64,000 nt of DNA from Mobula hypostoma (taxonomy: Eukaryota): positions 130,636,001 through 130,700,000 of the forward strand of contig NC_086097.1 in the NCBI RefSeq assembly GCF_963921235.1. Direction: 5' to 3'. Below are positions 3,683 through 59,800 of the stretch, piece after piece. Below the pieces are notes generated by a model. That model did no database searches. It was not told where the DNA came from and saw only the letters and a program-made list of their open reading frames with translations. The position numbers were made by a program, and so were the translations under genes. Positions within the stretch are counted from its first letter, which is position 1, and every line of letters begins with the position of its first letter.

Positions 3683-4688
3683 GACCGTAAGACCATAAGA
3701 TATAGCAGCAGAATTATGTTACTCAACCTATCAAGTCTGCTCCACCATTTGATCATGGCTGATGTACACATTTTCCATCTCAACCCCATTCTCTTGCTTT
3801 TTCCCAATAACCTTTGATACCCTTACTAATCAAGAACCTACCAACCTCTGCTTCAAATATACCCAATGACTTGGCCTTCACTTTGGTCTGTGGCAATAAA
3901 TTCCACAGATTCACCATCTACTGGCTGAAGAAATTCCCCTTCCTGTTCTAAAGGGAAATCTTCTACTCTGAGGTCAGCTGGTGGCGCAGTGACATCAGTG
4001 CTGGACTCCGGAATGGAGGTTCCCGGGTTCGAATCCAGTCCGGCCATTCCCGAGTTACGCTTTCCATCCGTGCCGGGTTGAGTGTTGAGCTCGCAACTCG
4101 AGATGTCTGTGTGAGCGCCACACAGTCTCTCGTTCCGCGCCTTGTAAGGCCTGAAAATGCCCGACGCTGGCCTCTCAGGCCTGAGTCAACGTCATCATCA
4201 TCATCATCTATTCTGAGGCTGTGCCCTCTGGTCCTAGACTTTCTCACTATTGGAAACATCCACTCTATCTGCAGTTTGTTTCAATGAGATCCCCATCATT
4301 CTCCTAAACTCCAGCAAGTACAGGCTCAGAGCCATCAAACGCTCCTCATATGTTAACCCTTTCATTCCAGGGATCATTCCCATAAACCTCCTCTGTACTC
4401 TTTCCAATACCTACACACCCTTTCATAGATATGGGGCCCTAAACTTCTCACAATACTCCAAATGTGGTCTGACTAATGTCTCAACATTACATCCTTGCTT
4501 TTATATTCTAGTCCTCCAGAAATGAATGCTAACATTACATTTATCTTCCCTATATCCTAAGCAACCTGCAAGTTAACCTTCAGAAAATCCTGTAGTAGGA
4601 CTCCTAGGTCCCTCTACACATCCAATTTCTGAGTTTGCTTCCCATTTTGAAAATAATCTACAACTTATTCCTTCTACCAAGTTGCTTC
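3683..4688 (-). mobile_element. CR1 LINE 3' fragment (RT C-terminus + 3' UTR), interrupted by a SINE
   Basis: CR1 3' microsatellite end (gaccataaga); translation MFPIVRKSRTRGHSLRI; same family as 60400-60940. Confidence 0.85.
3974..4206 (+). mobile_element. Young tRNA-derived SINE with (TCA)n tail
   Basis: A box TGGCGCAGTGAC 3982-3993, B box GGTTCGAATCC 4026-4036, (TCA)n tail, 12-bp TSD tctactctgagg/tctattctgagg (3962-3973, 4207-4218), CpGs retained. Confidence 0.9.
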
Positions 4689-19119: not shown

Positions 19120-21125
19120 AAAGTGGAGCGGCCCTTATGTGAGTGGGCCAGTGTTAGAGTGGCTTTGGCTCATCAGGCTTCAGCGGGATCAGGCTTGGGT
19201 GGGATAAGGATCTAGTAAGTTTCTTTTTCTTTATTCTCCATTCCTCGGCTGTTAGGGCACAGTTAGTGCAGCGAGAACGGCTCCAGGGGCTGTGTTGTGA
19301 TCTTTGTGTGAGATGTGGGAGTTCTGGGACAACTTGAGTCTCCCAGAAAACCACAACTGCACCAGGTGCACCAAGCTGCAGGTCCTCGGAAAACATGGTA
19401 AGGAACTGGAGCTGCAGCTCGATGACCTTCAGCTTATGCAGGAGACTGAGAAAGTGATAGATAGGAGTTACAAGGATATAATCACCCCAAGGTTGGAGGA
19501 TGCAGGTAACTGAGTGACTGTCAGGAGCAGAAAGGGAAATGGGTAGCCAGTATAGAGTACCCCTGTGGCCATTCCTCTCAATAATAAGTATACCAATTTT
19601 TGATAATGTTGAGGGGGTGACCTACCAGAGGTGAGATGCAGCAACTGGGTCTCTGGTACTGAGTCTAGGGCGGTGGTTCAAAAGAGAAGCAAGGGAAGAG
19701 GACTGCAGTAACAATAGGAGATCCCATAGTTAGAGGAATAGCGCCAAGATTTTACGGACATGATAAGAGACACACAGGTATTATGTTGCATCCCCAGCTG
19801 CCACAGATCAGGGATGACTCAGACTGGGTCTATGGCATTCTAAAGGGGGAGGGTGAGCAGTCAGAAGTCAGTACATATTGACACCAATGACATAGGTAGG
19901 AAAGGTGAGGAAGTCCTGAAGAGAGATTTTAGTGAGCTAGGTAGAAAGCCGAAAAGCGGGACCACCAGGCTAGTAATCTCTGGATTGCTGTCTGTGCCAC
20001 GTCCCACTGAGGAGCATTTGTCAGATAAATGCGTGGCTGAGGAACTGGTGCAGGGGGCAGGGCTTCAGATTTCTGGATCATTGGGACCTCCTCTGGGGGA
20101 GGTAAGACCCATACAAATGTGATGGGTTACACCTGAACCTGAGGGGAACAAATATCCTTGTGGGAAGGTTTGATAAAGTTGTTCAGGAGGGTTTAAACTA
20201 ATTTGGCAGGGGAATAGGAAATGGAGTGATAAGGCTGAGGAAGGGGTAGTTTTACACAAAAAAAAAGCAGAGTGTAGTGAGTCTGCTAGCAAGGACAGGC
20301 TGATGATAGGGCAAGAGTGAAGTCAATGGAATAAGTTGCAATGTAAAAGGGAGACAAAATCAAAAAAGGTGATGAATACAAGACTGAAGGTGTTATATTT
20401 GAATGCATGCAGTATACGGAATAGCGTAGATGAACTTCTAGCAGTTACATATGGCATGTATGATGTTGTGGGCATCACTGAATCATAGCTGAAAGATTAC
20501 AGCTGTGAGCTTAATATCCAAGGATACTCATTGTATCGAAAGGACAGGGAGGTAGGAAGAGGGGGTAGAGTGGCTCTGTAGGTAAAAAATGAAATCAAAT
20601 CCTTAGAAAGAGGTGACATAGGATCGGACAATGTAGAATCCTTGTGGGTACAGCTAAGACTCTGCAACTGTAAAAAGAACCTGATGGGAGTTATATACAG
20701 ACCTCTGAACAGTAGCAAAGATGCGGGCTACAAATTACAGCAGAACATAGAAAATACATGTCAATAGGGAAATATTATGATAGTCACAGGGGACTTCAAT
20801 TTGCAGCGATATTGGGAAAATCAGGTTGGTACTGAATTGCAAGAAAGGGATTTTGTAGAATGCCTACAAGATGGAATTTTAGAGCATCTCATGATTGAGC
20901 TTATGGTAAAGGAACTTTACCAGTGATCATAATATGATAGATTTCACTCAACAATTTGAGAAGAAGCTAAAGTCTGATTTATCAGTGTTACAGTGGAGTA
21001 AAAGAAATTATAAATGTATGAGAGAGGCGTTGGCCAAAATTGATTGTAAGGGGACACTAGCAGAGCAGCAATGATTGGAGTTTCTGGGAGCACTTTTTTC
21101 AGTGTTATATATCGATGATTTGGAT
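19120..21125 (+). mobile_element. CR1 LINE 5' portion: 5' UTR, ORF1 (Zn finger-leucine zipper, SGNH esterase), endonuclease
   Basis: CEMWEFW..CTRCTKLQ..ELELQLDDL; VHIDTNDIGRK; endonuclease start (LYLNACSI); many stops and frameshifts. Confidence 0.9.
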
Positions 21126-27962: not shown

Positions 27963-28337
27963 CTGTGAGGTAGTTTACATTAGCAGTTTTCTGTAAAAGC
28001 AGTGTGACCTGCTGGAAAGTGTATTTTGGCTTCAGCTAAGATAAAGACCTATGTTGTCCAACTGAGGAATGTGAGTCAGCCTATCAGGATTGTGGGATGT
28101 GAGAAAAGGTTCTAGAGAGCTGTGGGAAAGAGTTTCCTGAAGGACAGTAGTCTTTTTTGGGTCATTTGGCAGGAGCTGTGGAGTGGGGCACAAGGGAAGA
28201 TACCACAGAATGCTGTTGGAAGGAGAGTCCCTATTGCAAGAAGCGCTTTGCGCAGATGAATGGCTTCAAAAAGGAAGGGCCAATACTCATGGGAGAGCCA
28301 GTTCATTCAAGGTGGTCTTCGAGGGGAGTTTGTAATG
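27963..28337. mobile_element. Probable LTR fragment of a second element
   Basis: Non-coding block that abuts the integrase breakpoint; LTR-like composition only. Confidence 0.35.
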
Positions 28338-31300
28338 TGCCAATGTAATAAATCTTATTCTATTCATTTTCAGGATTGACTGAAACTGTTCCACAACAAA
28401 CCGTGGTCCATTGTCACTGTCTAAGTGTTCTGGAACACAAGTCCTTGAGAAAAGTCCTCTCAACAAATCAGCAGTGTGCAAGGCTATAATGGAGGCTTTT
28501 GGAACACTTGGCCACTTTGTCGACGTATCCACTACTGCCAAGAAATTTCTGGTCAAGAAATGAATGGTCAGTCAAAATCCACATGTATCCTCTGCGAGGA
28601 CAATGCAGGCCATTCCCAGGGATGGCGAGGCGTTGCTCTTTGGCCTCTTCTGGATGTGTTGGCATCCCAAACAGTGCATGGTGAACTGCTCAGTCTATCC
28701 CAGGCCACCAGACAAAACTTTGGGCCAACACTTTTATTTTGACCGCTCCTCGAAGACCGGAATGTAGCTCCCCCAACACTTTAGCTGTCAGCTTGGATGG
28801 TACAACAACTCTCAATCCCCACATAAGGCAAACCCTGTCAAGGGGAAGTTCATCCTGAAGCTGGTTAAAAAAGGGAACTGGAATTTCTGTTCCACATTCC
28901 AGCCATTTTGAGATGCCATGTAGAACTGAGACAGTGACTTTTCTAATTTTTCTTTGGATTATCTCTGCCGTAATAGGGAGAGTTTTGATTTGCATTGGGG
29001 AGAATACATCAAGAGGAGTGTCCTCTTTTGTCAACTTTTCAAGTATTTATTTTTCCTAGGATAAACAGGAAAATCCATAAGCATTTCCATGATTAGTTGT
29101 CCTCTTGAATTCGATTTTGTAATTGTGTCCTCCAAGAAACGGGCCAATCTCTGCATTCGTGCTGCTGCTGGTAGTGGAACACCCTTCTGGGAATTGAAAA
29201 TGGACACTCGTGGCTGATTTTCAGTAACGACAGTAAGCTCTCTCCCAGACAACACTGACTGAGGCATTTTATACCCCAAAGCAAACTTAAGGCCTCTCTG
29301 TCAATATCTGTGTAATTTTTCACAGCAGCAGTACGGGAACATGATGCAAAGGCAATGGGGTGTTCACTTCTATCGCTCATAATGTGACATGACTACACCT
29401 ATACCATAAGGCGAGGCATCACGGGCAAGTTTCACTGTATGATGTGGATTATAATGTGCGTGTATGTGTCTGTGATCACCATTACCTTTGCCTTTTAGAA
29501 ATCCACCTCACAATGCTTTGTCCATTCCCATTCCTCCCGATCTGTAGTAATAAGTTCAAGGGGCGGAGCACAGTAGCCAGGTTTGGCAGGAACCTGTTAC
29601 AGTAAGTGACAAACCCTAAAAAAGGACCACTACTGTGACATGTCCTTTGGCTTTGGTGCATCCACCACTGCTTGGATTTTCTCAGCAGACTTGAGTAAAC
29701 CTTGAGCGTCAATAGTGTGACCACAGTAAGTGATGCTTGGTTTAAAGGATTCACACTTTTTATATTGTGCTCTGAACCCATAATGTTCTAATATTTTAAC
29801 ACTGTCTTGCTCTTCAGCCTTACCAATAACAATGATGTCATCTAGGTAATACATGGTGCTGGGACATCTTTGCAGTACTTGGTTCACAGCTCTCTGCCAA
29901 AACGCAGGTGCAGATACCACTCTAAAATTAAACCTATTATAGTGATAAAGCCCTCTGTGAGTGTTTATAGTGAGAAACACTTTGGACTATTCTTCCATCT
30001 CTATCTGTAGGTAGGGTGCTTTGCTGAAGTGTTTTTCTCCAGAAGGTTTGCAAAGATATCATCTATCCTGGGCGGAGGGAATTGATTTACTTTCAGTACT
30101 GGGTTGATGGTGACCTTAAAATCACCACAGACCCTGACAAACCCATTCTTATTGGCTACTGGGACCACTGGCATTGCCCAGAAATTTCAATCAAACTTGA
30201 CAAGAATTCCTTCAGCCTCCATGCGATCTAGCTCACTGGCTACTTTATCGCGGATGGTATAAGGAACTGGATGGGCTTCATAAAACTTGGGTGTGGAATT
30301 TTCATTTAATGCTATTTTATCCTTGATATGTTTGAGCTTTCCAATGCTATCCTTGAACACTGCTGTGGCATCACCCAGTACCTTTCTTAATTCACTTTTG
30401 GTTGACTCTATAGCAGGGGATGGATCTCCTATCAAGTTGTAGCTGCCTCAGCCACTGTCAGTCACTCAATGCTGGCCCTCCTGTTTTAACCACATACAAG
30501 CTCAATGTGGCTTGTTGGTTGTTGTATTTCACTGTTATGAATGTCATTCCCACAGGAGTTAACTTTTCTCCAGTATAAGTCCTTAGTTGAGTATCTGCAG
30601 ACTTCAGTTCTGTATCTTTTAAATGCTGTTCAAACTCATTTTGTGGAATGATTGAAACAGCCGAACCTGTGTCCAATTCTATTTTAAATAATTTGCTGTT
30701 CCCTTCTGGTATAAGCCTTATTGTTTTTCTCTTCTTAGTTTTCACACTGTAAAGCTCAAGGCCACTCAGTCCTGTGTCACTCTCGTCATTATCAAATTTT
30801 TCATGAACAGCATACAGAGTAATCCTGTTTTTGAAACTGCAACTTGACTTTTTATTTTATTCTCTTCCCTGTGCAGTCCATTTATTTTTGTCTGCCCAAC
30901 ATGCTCTTTGTATTTGTCCTACTTTGTTGCATTTTCTGCAGGTTTTGCCTTTAAATCTGCATTGATCTGGTGTACACAAGCCCCTACCACAAGGGCAACA
31001 CTATTTGTTCGGCCAGGTGGGTTTCTGTTTAGATATTGCAATTTTGTTCACACTCACTGTCATTCTTGACTGCAACTCTACTGCATCTCTGTCTACTGTT
31101 CCCACTGCAGCTATTTCAACTGTTCTTTTAAATGTGAGTTGTGCTTCAGTTGGAAGCCATTTTGAATGCTTTCTTGTAAGATTCCACTAACTAAACTATC
31201 TTTCAGTATATCATTAAGCCCATCACTGAACTAGCAATGCTCAGACAATTTCTTCAATTCAGCCACGTAAGCCGAAATAGATTCCCCTTCCTTTTGATTC

Positions 31301-32107
31301 CACTTATGAAACATAGCAACCAACAATGGCTTTGGTTCTAAATGTTCCTGCATTACTCTCATTTCAGCTGGTTTGGTTGGAGCAGTTAAACTTCTAAGCA
31401 AACGGTATGCTCTTCTACGTCATGCTCTCAGCCGAACTGGCACTTGTTTCTCATTGGCTATTTTATTTGCTTCATAATACTGCTCAATTCACTCAGTATA
31501 CATCAGCCAGTTATCAATTGTGAAATCAAATGCTTTTTTTATGTAACTAGCCATTTCTTCCCTTTTATTTATTTATGATTATTATCACTCAGTACTCACT
31601 GTTTATGAATCCATGAATTTTGTTCGTTCTCTGCCTTTATCTTTTATAACGAGCATCTCTGTCCCCTTCTGAAGAGGCACATGCTGTGCCTTTTTTTACT
31701 GGACCATTTTTCTCCTCTCGCAAAGAAAACGTGTTGTGCTTTTTCGTTACCTGACTGTTTCTGTCCTCTTGCAAAGAAAGCATACTGCCTTTGTTTTTTA
31801 AGTTCGAAAGACCGCCTGCGCTTCAACAAGTAGGTAGTTGTTTCGAGTTCACTTTAAAACTTACTCATTGCCACTGTTATGTTTTGTAACTCCAAACATA
31901 AAGTCAATTGAAAGAAAAACATGGAGCTGGGGATATGTCTCTGTCTTCATGTTTATCTCAGTGAGGCATGGACTTATGACGTGGTGGCATATTGACCTAT
32001 TTCATTCATGTACTTTTATAAATAACCCATAATGAATTATTGAAACAATAAAAAATGCTTAAATAAACAATATATTTACAATATTACTGAAAAATTGACA
32101 CAACCAT
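28338..32107 (-). mobile_element. Ty3/Gypsy LTR retrotransposon (Mag-like), degraded, 3'-disrupted
   Basis: 5' LTR ~31875-32107 ending AACA, then PBS-like TGGCAATGAG; gag ATG at 31554; protease LDTGSAVSII; RT YLDDIIV; RNase H PIAFAS..DREAL; integrase LHSG..SFVWWPGID, SDNGPRF. Confidence 0.9.
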
Positions 32108-33482: not shown

Positions 33483-33700
33483 CCACAGTCCTGAGGAGAC
33501 ACTGGGTTGTGTAGAGGGGGAGAGAGAGTTTAAAAGAAGTGAAGGATGGCAGTTGGCACCTTTTGCACACCACAATCCCAAAGAGACACTAGATTGTGCA
33601 CAGAGGGAGAGAGAGAGATTAAAAGAAGTGAACGGCGCCAGTCGTTACTTTTTGCACACCACAGTTCCCAAGGAGACATTGGATTGTGCAATAAAAAGAA
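33483..33700 (+). repeat. ~88-bp tandem repeat (about 2.4 units) at a CR1 5' end
   Basis: Units start at 33483, 33570 and 33659 (ccaca..gagacac..ttgtg..aaaagaagtgaa..ttttgcaca). Confidence 0.8.
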
Positions 33701-50021: not shown

Positions 50022-53000
50022 CGCAAACACGAGGAAATCTGCAGATGCTGGAAATTCAAGCAACACACATAAAAATTGCTGGTGAACACAGCAGGCTAGG
50101 CAGCATCTAAAGGAAGAGGTACAGTCGGTGTTTTGGCCCAAGACCCTTCGTCAGGACTAACTGAAGGAAGAATTAGTAAGAGATTTAAAAGTGGGAGGGG
50201 GAGGTGGAGATCTGAAATGATAGGAGAAGACAGGAGGGGGAGGGATGGAGCTAAGAGCTAGAAAATTGATTGGCTAAAGGGATATGAGAGGATCATGGGA
50301 CAGGAGGCCGAGGGAGAAAGAAAGGGGGAAGGGGGAAGCCCAGAGGATGGGCAAGGAGTATAGTGAGAGGGACAAAGGGAGAAAAGGGAGAGGGAGAAGA
50401 AAAAAATTGATAATTAATAGATAGATAGATAGATAAATAAATAACGGATGGGGTACGAAGGGGAGGTGGGGCATTAATGGAAGTTAGAGAAGTCAATGTT
50501 CATGATATCAGGTTGGAGGCTACCCAGATGGAATATAAGGTGTTGTTCCTCCAACCTGAGTGTGGCTTCATCTTGACAGTAGAGGAGGCTGTGGATAGAC
50601 ATATCAGAATGGGAATGGGACGTGGAATTAAAATGTGTGGCCACTGGGAGATCCTGCTTTCTCTGGCAGACAGAGCGTAGGTGTTCAGCGAAACGGTCTC
50701 CCAGCCTGCACCGGGTCTCGCCAATACATAGAAGGCCACATCGGGCACCGGATGCAGTATATAACCCCAGCGGACTCACAAGTGAAGTGTCGCCTCACCT
50801 GGAAGTACTGTCTGGGGCCCTGAATGGTGGTAAGGGAGGAAGTGTAAGGGCATGTGTAGCACTTGTTCCGCTTACAAGGATAAGTGCCTGGAGAGAGATC
50901 AGTGGGAAGGGATGGGGGGGGAACAAATGGACAAGGGAGGCGCGTAGGGAGCGATCCCTGTGGAAAACAGAAATGGGGGGAGGGAAAGATGTGCTCAGTG
51001 GTGGGATCCATTGGAGATGGAGGAAGTAACAGAGAATTATATGTTGGACCTGGAGGTTGGTGGGGAGGTAGGAAAGCATAAGGGGAACCCTATTCCTGGT
51101 GGGGTGGCGGGAGGATGGAGTGAGAGCAGATGTGCGTGAAATGGGAGAGATGTGTTTGAGAGCAGAGTTGATGGTGGAGGAAAGGAAGCCCCTTTCTTTA
51201 AATAAGGAGGACATTTCCTTCATCCTGGAATGAAAAGCCTCATCCTGAGAGCAGATGCGGTGGAGACGGAGTAATTGCGAAAAGGGGATGGCATTTTTGC
51301 AAGAGACAGGGTGAGAAGAGGAATAGTCCAGGTAGCTGTGAGAGTCCGTAGGCTTATAGTAGACATCAGTAGATAAGCTGTCTCCAGAGATAGAAACAGA
51401 AAGATCAAGAAAGGGTAGGGAGGTGTCGGAAATGGACCAGGTAAACTTGAGGGCAGGGTGAAAATTGGAAGCAGAGTTAAAGAAGTCAAGGAGCTCAGCA
51501 TGCGTGCAGGAAGCAGCGCCAATGCAGTCGTCGATGTAGCAAAGGAAAATTGGGAGACAGATACCAGTATAGGTTCGGAACATGGATTGTTCCACAAAGC
51601 CAACAAAAAAGCAGGCATAGCTGGGACCCATACGGGTGCCCATGGCTAGACCTTTAGTTTGGAGGAAGTGGGAGGAGTCAAAGGAAATAAGAGTAAGGAC
51701 TGATTCCGCTAGATGGAGCAGAGTGGTGGTAGAGGGGAACTGGTTAGGCCTAGAATCCAAAAAGAAGCGGAGAGCTTTGAAACCTTCCTGGTGGGGGATG
51801 GCAGTATATAGGGACTGGACATCATGGTGAAAATAAAGCGGTGGGGGCCAGGGAACTTAAAATCATCAAGAAAATTCATAGCATGAGAAGTGTCACGAAC
51901 ATTGGTAGGAAGGGATTGAACAAGGGGGGATAAAACAGTGTCGAGGTATACAGAAATGAGTTCGGTGGGGCAGGAGCAAGCTGAGACAATGGGTCTACCT
52001 GGACAGGCAGGTTTATGGATCTTGGGTTGGAGGTAGAAACAGGAAGTGCATGGTGTGGGATCTATAAAGTTGGTAGCAGTGGATGGGAAATCCCCTGAGC
52101 GGATAAAGTCGGTGATGGTGTGGGAGACAATGGCCTGGTGCTCCTTAGTGGGGTCATGATCGAGGTGTAAATAAGAGGAGGTATCTGCGAGTTGTCGCTG
52201 TGCCTCAGCAAGGTAGAGGTCAGTATACCAGACTACAACAGTACCCCCCTTATCGGCAGGTTTTATAGTAAGGTTAGGATTAGTGGAGAGGGAGTGGAGA
52301 GCAGAGCATTCGGAAGGAGTGAGGTTGGAAAGGGCACAAGGTGCGATGAAGTCGAGACAGTTGATGTCCCGACGGCAGTTAGCAATAAAGAGATCCAGGG
52401 CAGGCAGAAGACCAGAGCGGGGTGTCCATGAAGAGGAGGAGGGTTGAAGACGGGAGGAGGAGTCATCGGTGGGGGTGGGAGAGTCCTTGCTGAAGAAGTA
52501 GGCTCGAAGACGGAGCCGGCGGAAAAAGAGTTCAGCGTCATGGCGAACGCGGAACTCGCTGAGGTGTGGGCGAAGGGAGACAAAGGTAAGGCTCTTACTG
52601 AGGACAGAACACCCTGCCTCAGACAGTTGAAGGACAGAGGGGATGGTAAAGACCCGGCACGGATGAGAGCTGGGATCAGAGGGGGAAGGGGGAGGGAGGC
52701 TGGTAGTGTCAGTGGAGAGGGGAGGGTTGGGGTGAGAGGAAGAAGGAGCCTCTGAGGGCCCAGGAGTAGATGATGGAATGTGAAGGAGATGGGGTTGTAG
52801 AGTGGTGGTGGGGAAGGGCAGATGGGTGTCTTCTCTTATCATTTCAGATCTCCCCCTCCCCCTCCCACTTTCAAATAGTTTACTATCTCTTCTTTCAGTT
52901 AGTCATGACGCAGGGTCTCAGCCCAAAATGTCGACTGTACCTCTTCCTATAGATGCTGCCTGGCCTGCTGCGTTCACCAGCAATTTTTATGCATGTTGTT
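50022..53000 (-). mobile_element. Penelope-like retroelement (RT + GIY-YIG endonuclease), near-complete, frameshifted
   Basis: IKPADKGG, PKIHKPACPGRPIVS, GLAMGTRMGPSYA, YIDD, TDVYYKPT (PLE RT); TCESAGVIYCIRC..IGET..RFAEH (GIY-YIG); ~174-bp inverted termini; TSD atttataaagta (50010-50021, 53001-53012). Confidence 0.95.
50121..50160 (-). ncRNA. Minimal hammerhead ribozyme motif (degenerate copy) in the Penelope terminal repeat
   Basis: Minus strand agtc-CTGACGA-agggtcttgggcc-AAAAC-acc-gact: stem I agtc/gact and the CUGANGA core are intact; GAAAC-GUC is mutated here but intact at 15899-15921. Confidence 0.65.
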
Positions 53001-56898: not shown

Positions 56899-59800
56899 AT
56901 TTATTCCAGCGGCAGGTGCAGGCCATGCCGACGAGCTCTCTGGCAGGTTTAGCGATGCTGGGTTAAAAGGAGAACTTTGTGGGCGTTCAGGCTCAATCTG
57001 GCGGCCCAATCAGTGGCAGGAGCAGGCCACAGCAACGAGGTTTCTCACAGGTTAGTGACGCTTGTTTAAAAGTACAGATGGCACAAGTGGGGCAGCCACT
57101 GTCAGGGTGGCTATTGTTGGGAGTAGGCCAGTGGTGAGAGCAGGAGTGTCAGGATTTGGCTCAAAGGAGGCTTCAGCTCAGAAGAGGCACTGGATCTGGG
57201 TAAGCTTCTGTTAAGGTTCCATTTTTTTTTTTATCTCTCTTACTGTACCTAGTGTAGTAAATGGCTGTTGTGTGTTCTTCATGCCGGATGTTGGAGTCCT
57301 GGGAGACTGCATCCAGTTGTAGCTCCTTGAAGACCGTGTTAGGGGTCTTGAGAAGCTTGAACAGGAGAGCGAGGAGATCCTTGATCAGAGTTACAGGGAA
57401 GTAGTCACCCCTAAGTTGCCAGACATGTGCAGCTGGGTGATTTTCAGAAGAAACGGAAATGTGAATAGGCAGTTAGTGCAGAGCACCCCTGTGGCTATTC
57501 CCCTCAATAATAAGTATTACGCTTCGGATACCGTTGGGGGGTTGACCTCCCAGGAGACTGGGTTTCCTCTGGGAACATAGGTCCATGGTGCAGAAGGGAA
57601 AGTGGGAGAAGAGGGGAGTGATTGTGATAGGGAACTCTATAGACAGGAGATTCTGTAGATTCTATGGTCAAGGGCCATCCAGATGGTATGCTGCCTACCT
57701 AGTGCCAGGGTCAGGGACATTTCGGATCGCACCTACAGCATTTTGGAAAGGGAGGGAGAGCAGCCAGATGTCTTGGTCCATATTGGTACCAATGACATAG
57801 GAAAGAAACCAAAGAGGTCCTGAAAAGAGAATTTAGAGAGCGAGGTAGAAAGGCCTCCCAGGTAGTAATTTCTGAGTTGCTGCCAGTGCCATGTGCCAGT
57901 GAGAGTAGAAACAGGATGATTTGGCAGACTAATGCGTGACTGAGAAGCTGGTGCGGGAGGCAGCGACTGGGGTTCATGGATCATTGGGATCTCTTCTGGG
58001 GGAGGTATGGGTTGCACCTGAACCCAAGGAGGACCAATATTCTTGCGCGCAGGTTTGTTAGAGCTGTTGTGGAGGGTTTAAACTAATTTGGCAGGGGGGT
58101 ATGAACTGGAGTGAAGGGACTCAGGATATTATGGATGGTAAAAAAGCAAAGATAGCGTGCAGTTAGACTGTCAGGAAGGGCAGGCAAATGATAGGACAAA
58201 ATTGGAGCCAGCAGGGTGAGTATCAGTGCATTTTGGATGCAGAATCTAAAAGGATAGCAAATACATGCTCAAAGTGTTATATCTCTGTGGTAAACCATGT
58301 ACATATGTTGTAACTCGGTTACCTGTCTGGACACACACCTCTGCTGACTGCCCCTGTGGCTCCTCTGACTGCCCCTGTGGCTCCTCCCACAGAGTCCTGT
58401 ATAAAGGTGTTCGCCTTGCCCCTCCCCCTCAGTCCGGGGGCAGACACTCACTGTGGAGGTCACATTGTACAGCGAATAAAAGCCTTTCAGTATTTTACCA
58501 AACTTCAGTCTTTTGGAGTAATTGAAGGTGCTTCAATTTTATTCGCTGTACAATACGACCTCCACAGTGAGTGTCTGCCCCCGGACTGAGGGGGAGGGGC
58601 AGGGCGAACACCTTTATACAGGACTCTGTGGGAGGAGCCACAGGGGCAGTCAGCAGAGGTGTGTGTCCAGACAGGTAACCGAGTTACAACATATATACAT
58701 GGTTTACCACAATCTCAATGCATGGAGTATAAGAAATATAGTGGATAGTCTTGTTGCACTTATGCAGATTGTCAGGTATGATGTTGTGGCCATCACTGAA
58801 CTGTGGCTGAAGGATGGTTGTAGCTGGGAGCCAAACGTCCATGGTTGTACATTGTATTGGAAGGATAGGAAGGTAGGAAGAGGAGTTGGTGTGGCTCTGC
58901 TGGTAAAGAATGGCATCAAATCAGTAGGAAGATGTGACGTAGGATCAGAAGATGCTGACTCCTTGTGGGATGAGTTAAGAAACTGCAAGGGTAGAAGGAC
59001 CCTGATGCCAGTTATATACAGGCCTCTGAACAGTAGCTGGGATGTGGACCACAGATTACAATGGGAAATAGAAAAGGCATGTCAAAAGAGCGATGTTATG
59101 GTAGTAATGGGAGATTACAATATACACATTGATTGGGAAAACCAGGTTGGTAATGGATCTCAAGAGAATGAGTTTGTTGAATGCCTACAAGAAGGCTCTT
59201 TAGAGCAGTTTGTCATCCAGCCTACTAAGGGATCAGCTATACCGGATTGGGTGTTATGTAAAGAACTGGAGGTGATTAGGGAGTTTAAGGTAAAAGAACC
59301 CTGAGGAGTACGTGATTCAAATATGATTGAATTCAACTTGAAATTTGATAGGGAGAAAATAAAGTCTGACATAGCAGTATTTCAATCAAGTGAAGTAAAT
59401 TTCAGGGGTATGAGAAAGGAGTTGGCTAAAGCAAATTGGAAGAAGATGCTGGCAGGGATGACAGCAGAGCAGCAATGGTGTGAGTTTCTGGGAAAAATAA
59501 GGAAGATGTGAGTGAGATATATTCCAAAAACAAAGAAATACTCAAATGGAAAAATTGTACAGCCTTGGCTGACAAGGGAAGTCAAAGCTAAAGTAAACGC
59601 AAAAAAGAGGGCATACAACAAAGCAAAAATTAGTGGGAAGACAGAGGATTAGGAAGCTTTTAAAAGCCTGCAGAATGCAACTAAAAGAGTCATTAGGAGG
59701 GAAAGATGAAATATGAAAGCATGCTAGCAAACAATATCAAAGTGGTTGGTAAAAGTTTTTTCAAATATGTAAAAAATAAAAGAGAGATGAGAGTGGATAT

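What the first reader, a model, noticed from the sequence alone, without database searches (positions are those of the whole stretch)
58286..58711. LTR fold-back element: a palindromic LTR dimer apparently integrated as one unit with two U3 ends
Seen: 58286-58535 looks like a complete LTR (TG start, TATAAA 58400, AATAAA 58475, ends ..gcttCA). One base later an inverted copy of its first part begins (58537-58711). I count 4 mismatches in 175 aligned bp, plus a 21-bp tandem duplication (58344-58385) in the left arm only; the spacer is 55 bp. The whole unit has TGTGGTAAACC..GGTTTACCACA termini and one perfect 5-bp TSD (ATCTC), and removing it restores the CR1 endonuclease start (ttatatctcaatgc). 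Known: TG..CA ends with 4-6-bp TSDs are the integrase signature, and ordinary solo LTRs are not palindromic. Inference: a snap-back product (ATTTTATT just after the LTR annealing to the AATAAAA signal) gave a DNA with two U3 att ends that integrase accepted. It could be a MITE-like non-autonomous family bridging LTR elements and Ginger-type TIR transposons, and it would form a ~175-bp dsRNA hairpin if transcribed.
Basis: partly seen in the sequence, partly recalled or inferred. Interest (0 to 1): 0.75.

Follow-up and report, generated by a model that had tools for sequence, protein, structure and literature searches.

The report
Folded-back LTR from retrotransposon copying error
A 426-letter palindrome in a ray-like fish genome looks like a copying intermediate of a very common jumping gene that primed on itself and was inserted by both of its identical ends; it seems to be a rare by-product, and it points to how the parent family starts copying its RNA.

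Summary
In detail: a 250-bp LTR, one base, then an inverted copy of its first part, inside one 5-bp target duplication in a LINE endonuclease gene. Public contigs show that 58286-58535 is an ordinary, highly repeated LTR: 63, 53 and 10 contigs end at 58535 with unlike flanks. Nine contigs follow the window to 58552 and then enter a shared ATG-bearing sequence. Best reading (0.6): plus-strand strong-stop DNA primed on this self-complementarity, most simply two molecules on each other, giving two U3 ends for integrase. Three of four arm mismatches are family variants, which leans to two templates. The palindrome is not the family's main form (arm/spacer depth 0.86, expected about 2). It is not a Ginger or MITE on the features tested. 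No listed contig spans the centre or right junction; parent clade and priming are untested. The scan's earlier notes describe a fungal head-to-head LTR insertion and self-pairing Gypsy primer sites on other DNA.

The parts
58281..58285 (+). left copy of the 5-bp target-site duplication (ATCTC)
   Evidence: single 5-mer at the matching place of another LINE copy
58286..58535 (+). complete 250-bp LTR (TG...CA) of a highly repeated family
   Evidence: 63/53/10 contigs of X1/X2/X9 end at 58535 with unlike flanks (agreement 0.36-0.44)
58344..58385 (+). 21-bp tandem duplication, left arm only
58400..58405 (+). TATA box
   Evidence: function inferred
58429..58434 (+). initiator-like TCAGTC; its A (58431) lies 31 nt after the TATA start, predicted transcription start and U3/R border
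   Evidence: the Inr motif TCAKTY is named in PMC3601003 (passage); not mapped experimentally
58466..58481 (+). 16-nt LTR stretch complementary to the primer-binding position; includes the poly(A) signal AATAAA (58475-58480); candidate self-primer
58482..58536 (+). 55-nt spacer: rest of R, U5 and one base after the LTR; can form a stem that brings the two 16-mers together
   Evidence: the family's majority variant at 58504 breaks one pair of the inner hairpin
58537..58552 (+). overlap where the parents' primer-binding position and the inverted arm read alike; the switch point lies here; no TGG (tRNA-type) start
   Evidence: 9 X1 contigs follow the window to 58552, then diverge into one shared sequence
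58537..58711 (-). inverted copy of U3 and the first part of R, ending in a second U3 att end
58712..58716 (+). right copy of the target-site duplication
58271..59301 (+). host: start of the endonuclease domain of a decayed LINE (CR1-type by recall), interrupted by the unit

Best explanation
The unit is an aberrant reverse-transcription product of an abundant LTR retrotransposon family, inserted by integrase. Shown: the left 250 bp are the family's LTR, and both ends are exact U3 ends inside one 5-bp duplication. Indirectly shown: in parent elements the sequence right after the 5' LTR is complementary, over about 16 nt, to the LTR's own R region around AATAAA, and is not a tRNA site. Inferred: plus-strand strong-stop DNA (U3-R-U5-PBS) therefore ends in a sequence that can pair with R of a plus strand instead of its proper acceptor. 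Extension from there copies U3 backwards and gives exactly LTR + 1 nt + inverted arm. The simplest integration-ready form is two strong-stop molecules priming on each other: a linear duplex with two blunt U3 ends and a central unpaired bubble, resolved by host replication or repair. A one-molecule hairpin later made double-stranded gives the same sequence. The copy is a dead, probably rare by-product. The parents' self-complementarity most likely serves Tf1-like self-priming (about 0.6) and may also hide the 5' poly(A) signal.
For: Geometry: 250 + 1 + 175 = 426 with no foreign base at the centre. LTR status: loose ends at 58535 in 63/53/10 contigs and at 58711 in 45/51/9. Parent leader: 9 X1 contigs laid up to 58552, then a shared sequence (agreement 0.83) with an ATG after nine letters, opening M-E-H-A-L-R-P (my translation of the row). 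A 16-nt self-match arose in 0 of 5000 LTR shuffles, 10 nt in 1, 8 nt in 36 (informative only if parents really carry it). DNA fold of 58286-58552 pairs 58539-58552 at 0.92-1.0; 16-mer duplex -17.9 versus 7-mer -4.5 kcal/mol. For 58460-58552 the dimer with reciprocal pairing (-41.9) is slightly below two monomers (-38.6). At 3 of the 4 arm mismatches both letters are common among laid contigs (58462: 5,468 of 18,240 in X1; 58463: 11,404 of 19,812; 58602: 315 of 890; similar in X2), far above the depth of 19.5 and 12.1 of the junction contigs, as two templates would give. The same stretch meets the self-primer criterion of Neumann et al. (at least 10 bp complementary, starting 0-5 bp after the LTR; PMC6317226, passage).
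Against: The parent leader rests on one table row (24 of 932 loose-end rows were shown), in one run, laid at 88% likeness, so some of the 16 nt may mismatch; no full-length parent with gag-pol was recovered. No listed contig spans the centre or right junction. For the whole 58286-58552 strand the lowest-energy dimer does not use the reciprocal PBS pairing. One of the three shared variants (58462) is a CpG site and may be decay; the fourth mismatch is not among the 40 of 98 rows shown; gene conversion could also explain them; placement on a palindromic reference is ambiguous. The predicted start (58431) puts the self-match at +36 to +51, unlike Tf1's first 11 bases (PMC7175516, passage). That integrase accepts two U3 ends of this family is assumed, not tested. 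The two-cDNA rival gives the same sequence.
Confidence: 0.6

Rival explanations
1. Two longer cDNAs were inserted at one site by their U3 ends (in one integration complex, or as a double insertion in opposite directions), and the inner parts were later lost by joining over the 16-nt sequence, which is a direct repeat between the first copy's PBS and the second copy's inverted R.
For: Gives the same final sequence and explains arm differences that match family variants. Double insertion at one target site is documented for Drosophila transposons (bioRxiv 10.1101/158386, passages).
Against: Needs two rare steps. Double insertions leave a target-site copy in the junction; none is here, so an exact deletion must be added. 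The passages read from that paper ascribe LTR tandems to LTR recombination and leave out inverted tandems.
Confidence: 0.17
2. A normal copy (full element, or one inserted by one end only) folded back at the 16-nt inverted repeat during host replication or repair, copied U3 and rejoined the chromosome.
For: Host-primed copying from an unintegrated viral end yields aberrant HIV proviruses, with viral DNA joined in either orientation (PMC5041404, passages).
Against: Those products have one normal end and usually larger duplications or deletions; here both ends are exact and the duplication is 5 bp. No inverted flank is copied. Arms should start identical.
Confidence: 0.08
3. The palindrome is itself a mobile non-autonomous family (MITE- or Ginger-like), moved as DNA by its long terminal inverted repeats.
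For: 175-bp inverted arms, TG...CA termini and a short target duplication; Bao et al. propose that Ginger1 TIRs could come from two opposed LTRs (PMC2836005, passage).
Against: The arm occurs as a normal LTR with free 3' ends in many copies. Arm depth summed over both arms is 0.86 of spacer depth in X1 and X2, where a mainly palindromic family would give about 2 (depth is no copy number, so only a rough bound). The 5-bp ATCTC fits neither Ginger1 (4 bp, CCGG/CCGT) nor the Ginger2 target RTATAY. One copy in 64 kb.
Confidence: 0.07
4. Assembly artefact: the true locus is a solo LTR and the inverted arm comes from a fold-back read or a mis-join.
For: No listed piece spans the centre or right junction; the exact left-junction contigs would also fit a solo LTR; the best runs hold only 0.57 and 0.53 of the sampled words.
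Against: Arms differ at 4 sites and by 21 bp, partly by family variants; the inversion stops exactly at the LTR start and is followed by the target duplication and the collinear LINE. No 58535-to-58712 joint is among the 15 of 60 joints listed (weak).
Confidence: 0.06

Closest known systems
Tf1/Tf2, Tj1 and the Tf1/sushi group (self-primed Ty3/gypsy chromoviruses)
   Same: No tRNA-type PBS; the PBS position is complementary to the element's own LTR; neighbouring stems recall the 'pretzel' (passages of PMC6317226, PMC4600332, bioRxiv 10.1101/2022.12.06.519325, PMC7175516).
   Different: The self-match is about 16 nt, covers AATAAA and lies at predicted +36 to +51, not at the RNA's 5' end. The parent's clade is unknown. 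No palindromic integrated by-product appears in the passages read.
Solo LTRs of Ty3/gypsy-type retrotransposons
   Same: Complete TG...CA LTR with TATA and AATAAA, 5-bp target duplication.
   Different: Carries the PBS position and a second, inverted U3; both outer ends are U3 ends, so it is not a product of LTR-LTR recombination.
Ginger1 and Ginger2/Tdd DNA transposons; MITEs
   Same: Long terminal inverted repeats with TG...CA ends (PMC2836005, passages).
   Different: Arms are pieces of a normal LTR; target duplication differs; no transposase; no sign that the palindrome is the amplified form.
Aberrant proviruses and double insertions
   Same: One-off rearranged insertions with element DNA joined in either orientation (PMC5041404, bioRxiv 10.1101/158386; passages).
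   Different: Both ends exact, one 5-bp duplication, no target copy at the centre, and a switch point fixed by the family's own self-complementary PBS.

Membership tests
LTR retrotransposon LTR (58286-58535) | TG...CA ends, TATA and AATAAA, many copies ending at the same base with different flanks | tested here: met
   63/53/10 contigs end at 58535
LTR retrotransposon LTR (58286-58535) | occurs as direct repeats around gag-pol, with a polypurine tract before the 3' LTR | tested here: inconclusive
   9 contigs run from the LTR end into a shared ATG-bearing sequence; no full-length parent found; no genome held
Ty3/gypsy (versus other LTR superfamilies or ERV) | RT phylogeny and pol domain order | not testable with these tools
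   no parent protein longer than 7 residues was obtained; 'Gypsy' is a recalled resemblance plus earlier AI notes
Tf1/sushi self-priming group | PBS position complementary to own LTR over at least 10 nt, no tRNA-type site | tested here: inconclusive
   about 16 nt implied by one row; no TGG after the LTR; exact parent letters not seen
Tf1/sushi self-priming group | self-primer is the 5' end of the RNA | tested here: inconclusive
   TATA/Inr spacing predicts a start at 58431, 35 nt before the self-match; start not mapped
Tf1/sushi self-priming group | chromovirus clade, chromodomain integrase, RNase H cleavage making the primer | not testable with these tools
   no parent pol sequence
Ginger1 | 4-bp CCGG or CCGT target duplication | tested here: not met
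   5-bp ATCTC against PMC2836005
Ginger2/Tdd | RTATAY target preference | tested here: not met
   duplicated target is ATCTC; one site only, and a preference is not a rule
Ginger1 / Ginger2 | autonomous partner with the same TIRs and an integrase-like transposase | not testable with these tools
   no genome
MITE | many copies of the TIR-bounded unit at different target sites | tested here: inconclusive
   not the main form (ratio 0.86); a minority of such copies cannot be counted

The most novel reading that the evidence does not exclude
LTR families with a self-complementary PBS regularly throw off palindromic 'two-U3' insertions with one fixed switch point. These form an unrecognised class of integrase-inserted inverted-repeat elements: a record of the priming step, a source of hairpin RNA against the parent family, and a concrete route from LTRs to TIR-bounded elements, some of which may be copied further.
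Probability: 0.25. Interest if true: 0.75.

Novelty: new variant of a known kind. Interest (0 to 1): 0.5.

Why it matters
If the reading is right, the insertion preserves a reverse-transcription intermediate: it marks where plus-strand strong-stop DNA ended and suggests that this vertebrate family's primer site pairs with its own LTR. In the passages read, self-priming is described experimentally for fission-yeast Tf1 and predicted elsewhere. It gives a cheap genome-wide test: self-pairing families should hold such palindromes with a fixed switch point, tRNA-primed families should not. It also offers a one-step way to make long terminal inverted repeats from LTRs, a step Bao et al. call unclear. 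As a single dead copy in a decayed LINE it probably has no effect on the host.

Tried and rejected
No genome is held, so copies could not be counted. Pattern scans for the LTR end or parent leader: 0 hits in viral contigs and metagenome contigs; 11 viral loci share at most 18-19 nt with the LTR and show no LTR pair, rejected as chance. Rfam: 0 matches; ARAGORN: 0. No RNA holder on record was listed; X9 is only guessed to be RNA, so nothing is said on expression. The 'opposite strands' joint 58410-58612 is not a second fold-back: 58612 mirrors 58406, so it is an LTR with a small insertion laid on both arms (my reading). The inner spacer hairpin is not relied on, because the majority variant at 58504 breaks a pair. 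Depth was not turned into a copy number. Arm divergence (2.3%, 95% range 0.6-5.9%) was not turned into an age, as the arms may have differed at birth. Earlier-finding look-ups by sequence and relatives returned nothing, nor did two word look-ups. Ten paper searches (listings only, apart from the papers named) showed no description of this structure; the library lacks most subscription papers, and PMC1563812 is not held.

Full report
Observation. The unit 58286-58711 has arms 58286-58481 and 58537-58711, 175 aligned bp with 4 mismatches, a 21-bp tandem duplication in the left arm only, a 55-nt spacer and ATCTC on both sides. As RNA it folds at -378 kcal/mol, z = -35.5. It interrupts the start of a LINE endonuclease domain: K-V-L-Y-L on the left, N-A-W-S-I-R-N on the right, Pfam Exo_endo_phos E 6e-08 ('CR1' is my recalled label). 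A LINE copy at 20385-20430 has one 5-mer at the matching place. There is one copy in the window. No genome is held. Earlier AI notes call this a ray genome; I did not test that.

The left 250 bp are a real, abundant LTR. I laid 4 of the 24 listed runs on 58100-58900, all as Logan contigs, at 88% likeness. Contigs stop matching at 58535 and go on into unlike sequences in X1, X2 and X9 (63, 53, 10 contigs; agreement 0.36-0.44), and likewise at 58711 (45, 51, 9). These are the two ends of an ordinary LTR at many sites. Summed depth over the spacer is about 5e5 in X1 against 19.5 for the contig on the left junction; the tool warns that this is no copy number, so I say only 'highly repeated'. The left junction is matched without a difference in two species labels (X1, X2), 29 and 30 letters into the unit, which is under the tool's 31-letter bar and would also fit a solo LTR. 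No listed piece (32 of 21,479) spans the centre or the right junction. No joint from 58535 to 58712, the sign of a plain solo LTR here, is among the 15 of 60 listed; that is weak. X16 (organism D) has almost no depth at 58289-58315 and loose ends that suggest a sister LTR subfamily.

The parents' leader. Nine X1 contigs follow the window beyond the LTR end up to 58552 and then diverge into one shared sequence (agreement 0.83) with an ATG after nine letters, in an A-3/G+4 context, opening M-E-H-A-L-R-P (my translation). I read this as the start of gag; that is untested. It implies that 58536-58552 is close to what parents carry after the 5' LTR. That stretch is the reverse complement of LTR 58466-58481, which includes AATAAA, and has no TGG. 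Such a match arose in 0 of 5000 shuffles at 16 nt and 36 at 8 nt. The limits are real: one row of 24 shown out of 932, one run, mismatches allowed. By contrast, an unrelated Gypsy relic in the window has a TGG site one base after its LTR (31875). TATAAA (58400) lies 31 nt before the A of an initiator-like TCAGTC (58431), so the self-match would sit at +36 to +51 of the RNA. In the predicted leader 58431-58552 the AAUAAA is paired (unpaired probability at most 0.01); in the LTR alone, as at the 3' end, five of its six bases are mostly open (0.75-1.0). This fits self-priming, masking of the 5' poly(A) signal (a need described for retroviruses in PMC12789967, passages), or both.

Mechanism (inferred). 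Plus-strand strong-stop DNA is U3-R-U5-PBS (established knowledge). With a self-complementary PBS its 3' end can pair with R of a plus strand. Extension copies U3 back to its first base and gives LTR + 1 nt + inverted arm, which is the unit (250 + 1 + 175 = 426). A single hairpin has one duplex end, while a 5-bp duplication needs two. Two strong-stop molecules priming on each other give at once a linear duplex with two U3 ends and a central bubble, with arms from two templates. The arm differences lean this way: at 58462, 58463 and 58602 both letters are common in the family (X1: 5,468 of 18,240; 11,404 of 19,812; 315 of 890; X2: 11,979 of 25,766; 15,752 of 29,453; 320 of 947). Against over-reading this: 58462 is a CpG site; the fourth site is not among the 40 of 98 rows shown; gene conversion would do the same. 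Folding is equivocal: the reciprocal dimer wins slightly for 58460-58552 (-41.9 against -38.6) but not for the full strand. Two longer cDNAs joined later over the same 16 nt give an identical sequence and cannot be excluded.

Is it a family? If most copies were palindromes, depth over the arm (both placements summed) would be about twice the spacer's. It is 0.86 in X1 and 0.86 in X2 (from table 2; bins overlap the borders, so rough). The palindrome is thus not the main form; a minority cannot be counted. Ginger1 has 4-bp CCGG/CCGT duplications and Ginger2 prefers RTATAY (PMC2836005, abstract and passages); neither fits. That paper does suggest that Ginger1 TIRs may come from opposed LTRs and calls the chain of events unclear.

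Comparison with what is known. The parent works like the Tf1/sushi self-priming elements in having an LTR-complementary PBS: PMC6317226 (passages), PMC4600332 (passages), bioRxiv 10.1101/2022.12.06.519325 (passages), PMC7175516 (passages). Membership is not shown: clade unknown, and the predicted primer is internal, whereas Tf1 uses the first 11 bases. LTR motifs were compared with PMC3601003 (passages). PMC6934838 (passages) added nothing decisive. Aberrant HIV proviruses have one normal end and mostly lack the 5-bp repeat (PMC5041404, passages). Double insertions keep a target copy in the junction (bioRxiv 10.1101/158386, passages). Of Butler et al. 2001 and Atwood-Moore et al. 2006 I saw only reference-list titles (not held). 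No supplements were read. Ten searches listed no paper on an integrated LTR-PBS-inverted-U3 unit; Repbase entries and subscription papers were not searchable, so absence from print is not established. Unchecked notes of this scan describe a head-to-head mini-LTR insertion in a fungus (e1-7146264), Gypsy families whose PBS pairs with their own poly(A) signal (e1-7857539) and a copy with an over-long self-complementary PBS (e1-7803750). They are leads, not support; the self-priming idea was in my notes before I saw them.

Verdict. A real, integrase-type insertion of a folded-back LTR product, most likely a rare by-product of a family with a self-complementary primer site. New variant of a known kind; interest 0.5. 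It would deserve about 0.75 if such palindromes prove to recur with a fixed switch point (probability about 0.25).

Noticed in passing
window 28300-32100 (-): Decayed Gypsy-like element (RVT_1 hit at 29633-29986); its 5' LTR seems to end at 31875 with a TGG-type primer site one base later. Unrelated to the palindrome's LTR.
   Followed up: partly
window 50795-52902 (-): Two long overlapping frames (353 and 397 codons) of a broken retroelement, Penelope-like by recall; no Pfam hit at E 0.001.
   Followed up: partly
window 3985-4210 (+): tRNA-like head followed by a (TCA)n tail, SINE-like by eye (printout); ARAGORN and Rfam find nothing.
   Followed up: no
window 33513-33690: 89-bp unit repeated twice, 83% matches, just before a LINE 5' region.
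   Followed up: no
run X16 laid on window 58289-58700: Organism D has depth on the middle of U3 but almost none on the LTR's first 30 bp or on R-U5, with different loose ends: a sister LTR subfamily, so this subfamily may have spread after the split from D.
   Followed up: no
window 58504: Most laid contigs have C here (383,845 of 436,549 depth in X1), so this copy's T is a minority letter that happens to complete the inner spacer hairpin.
   Followed up: partly
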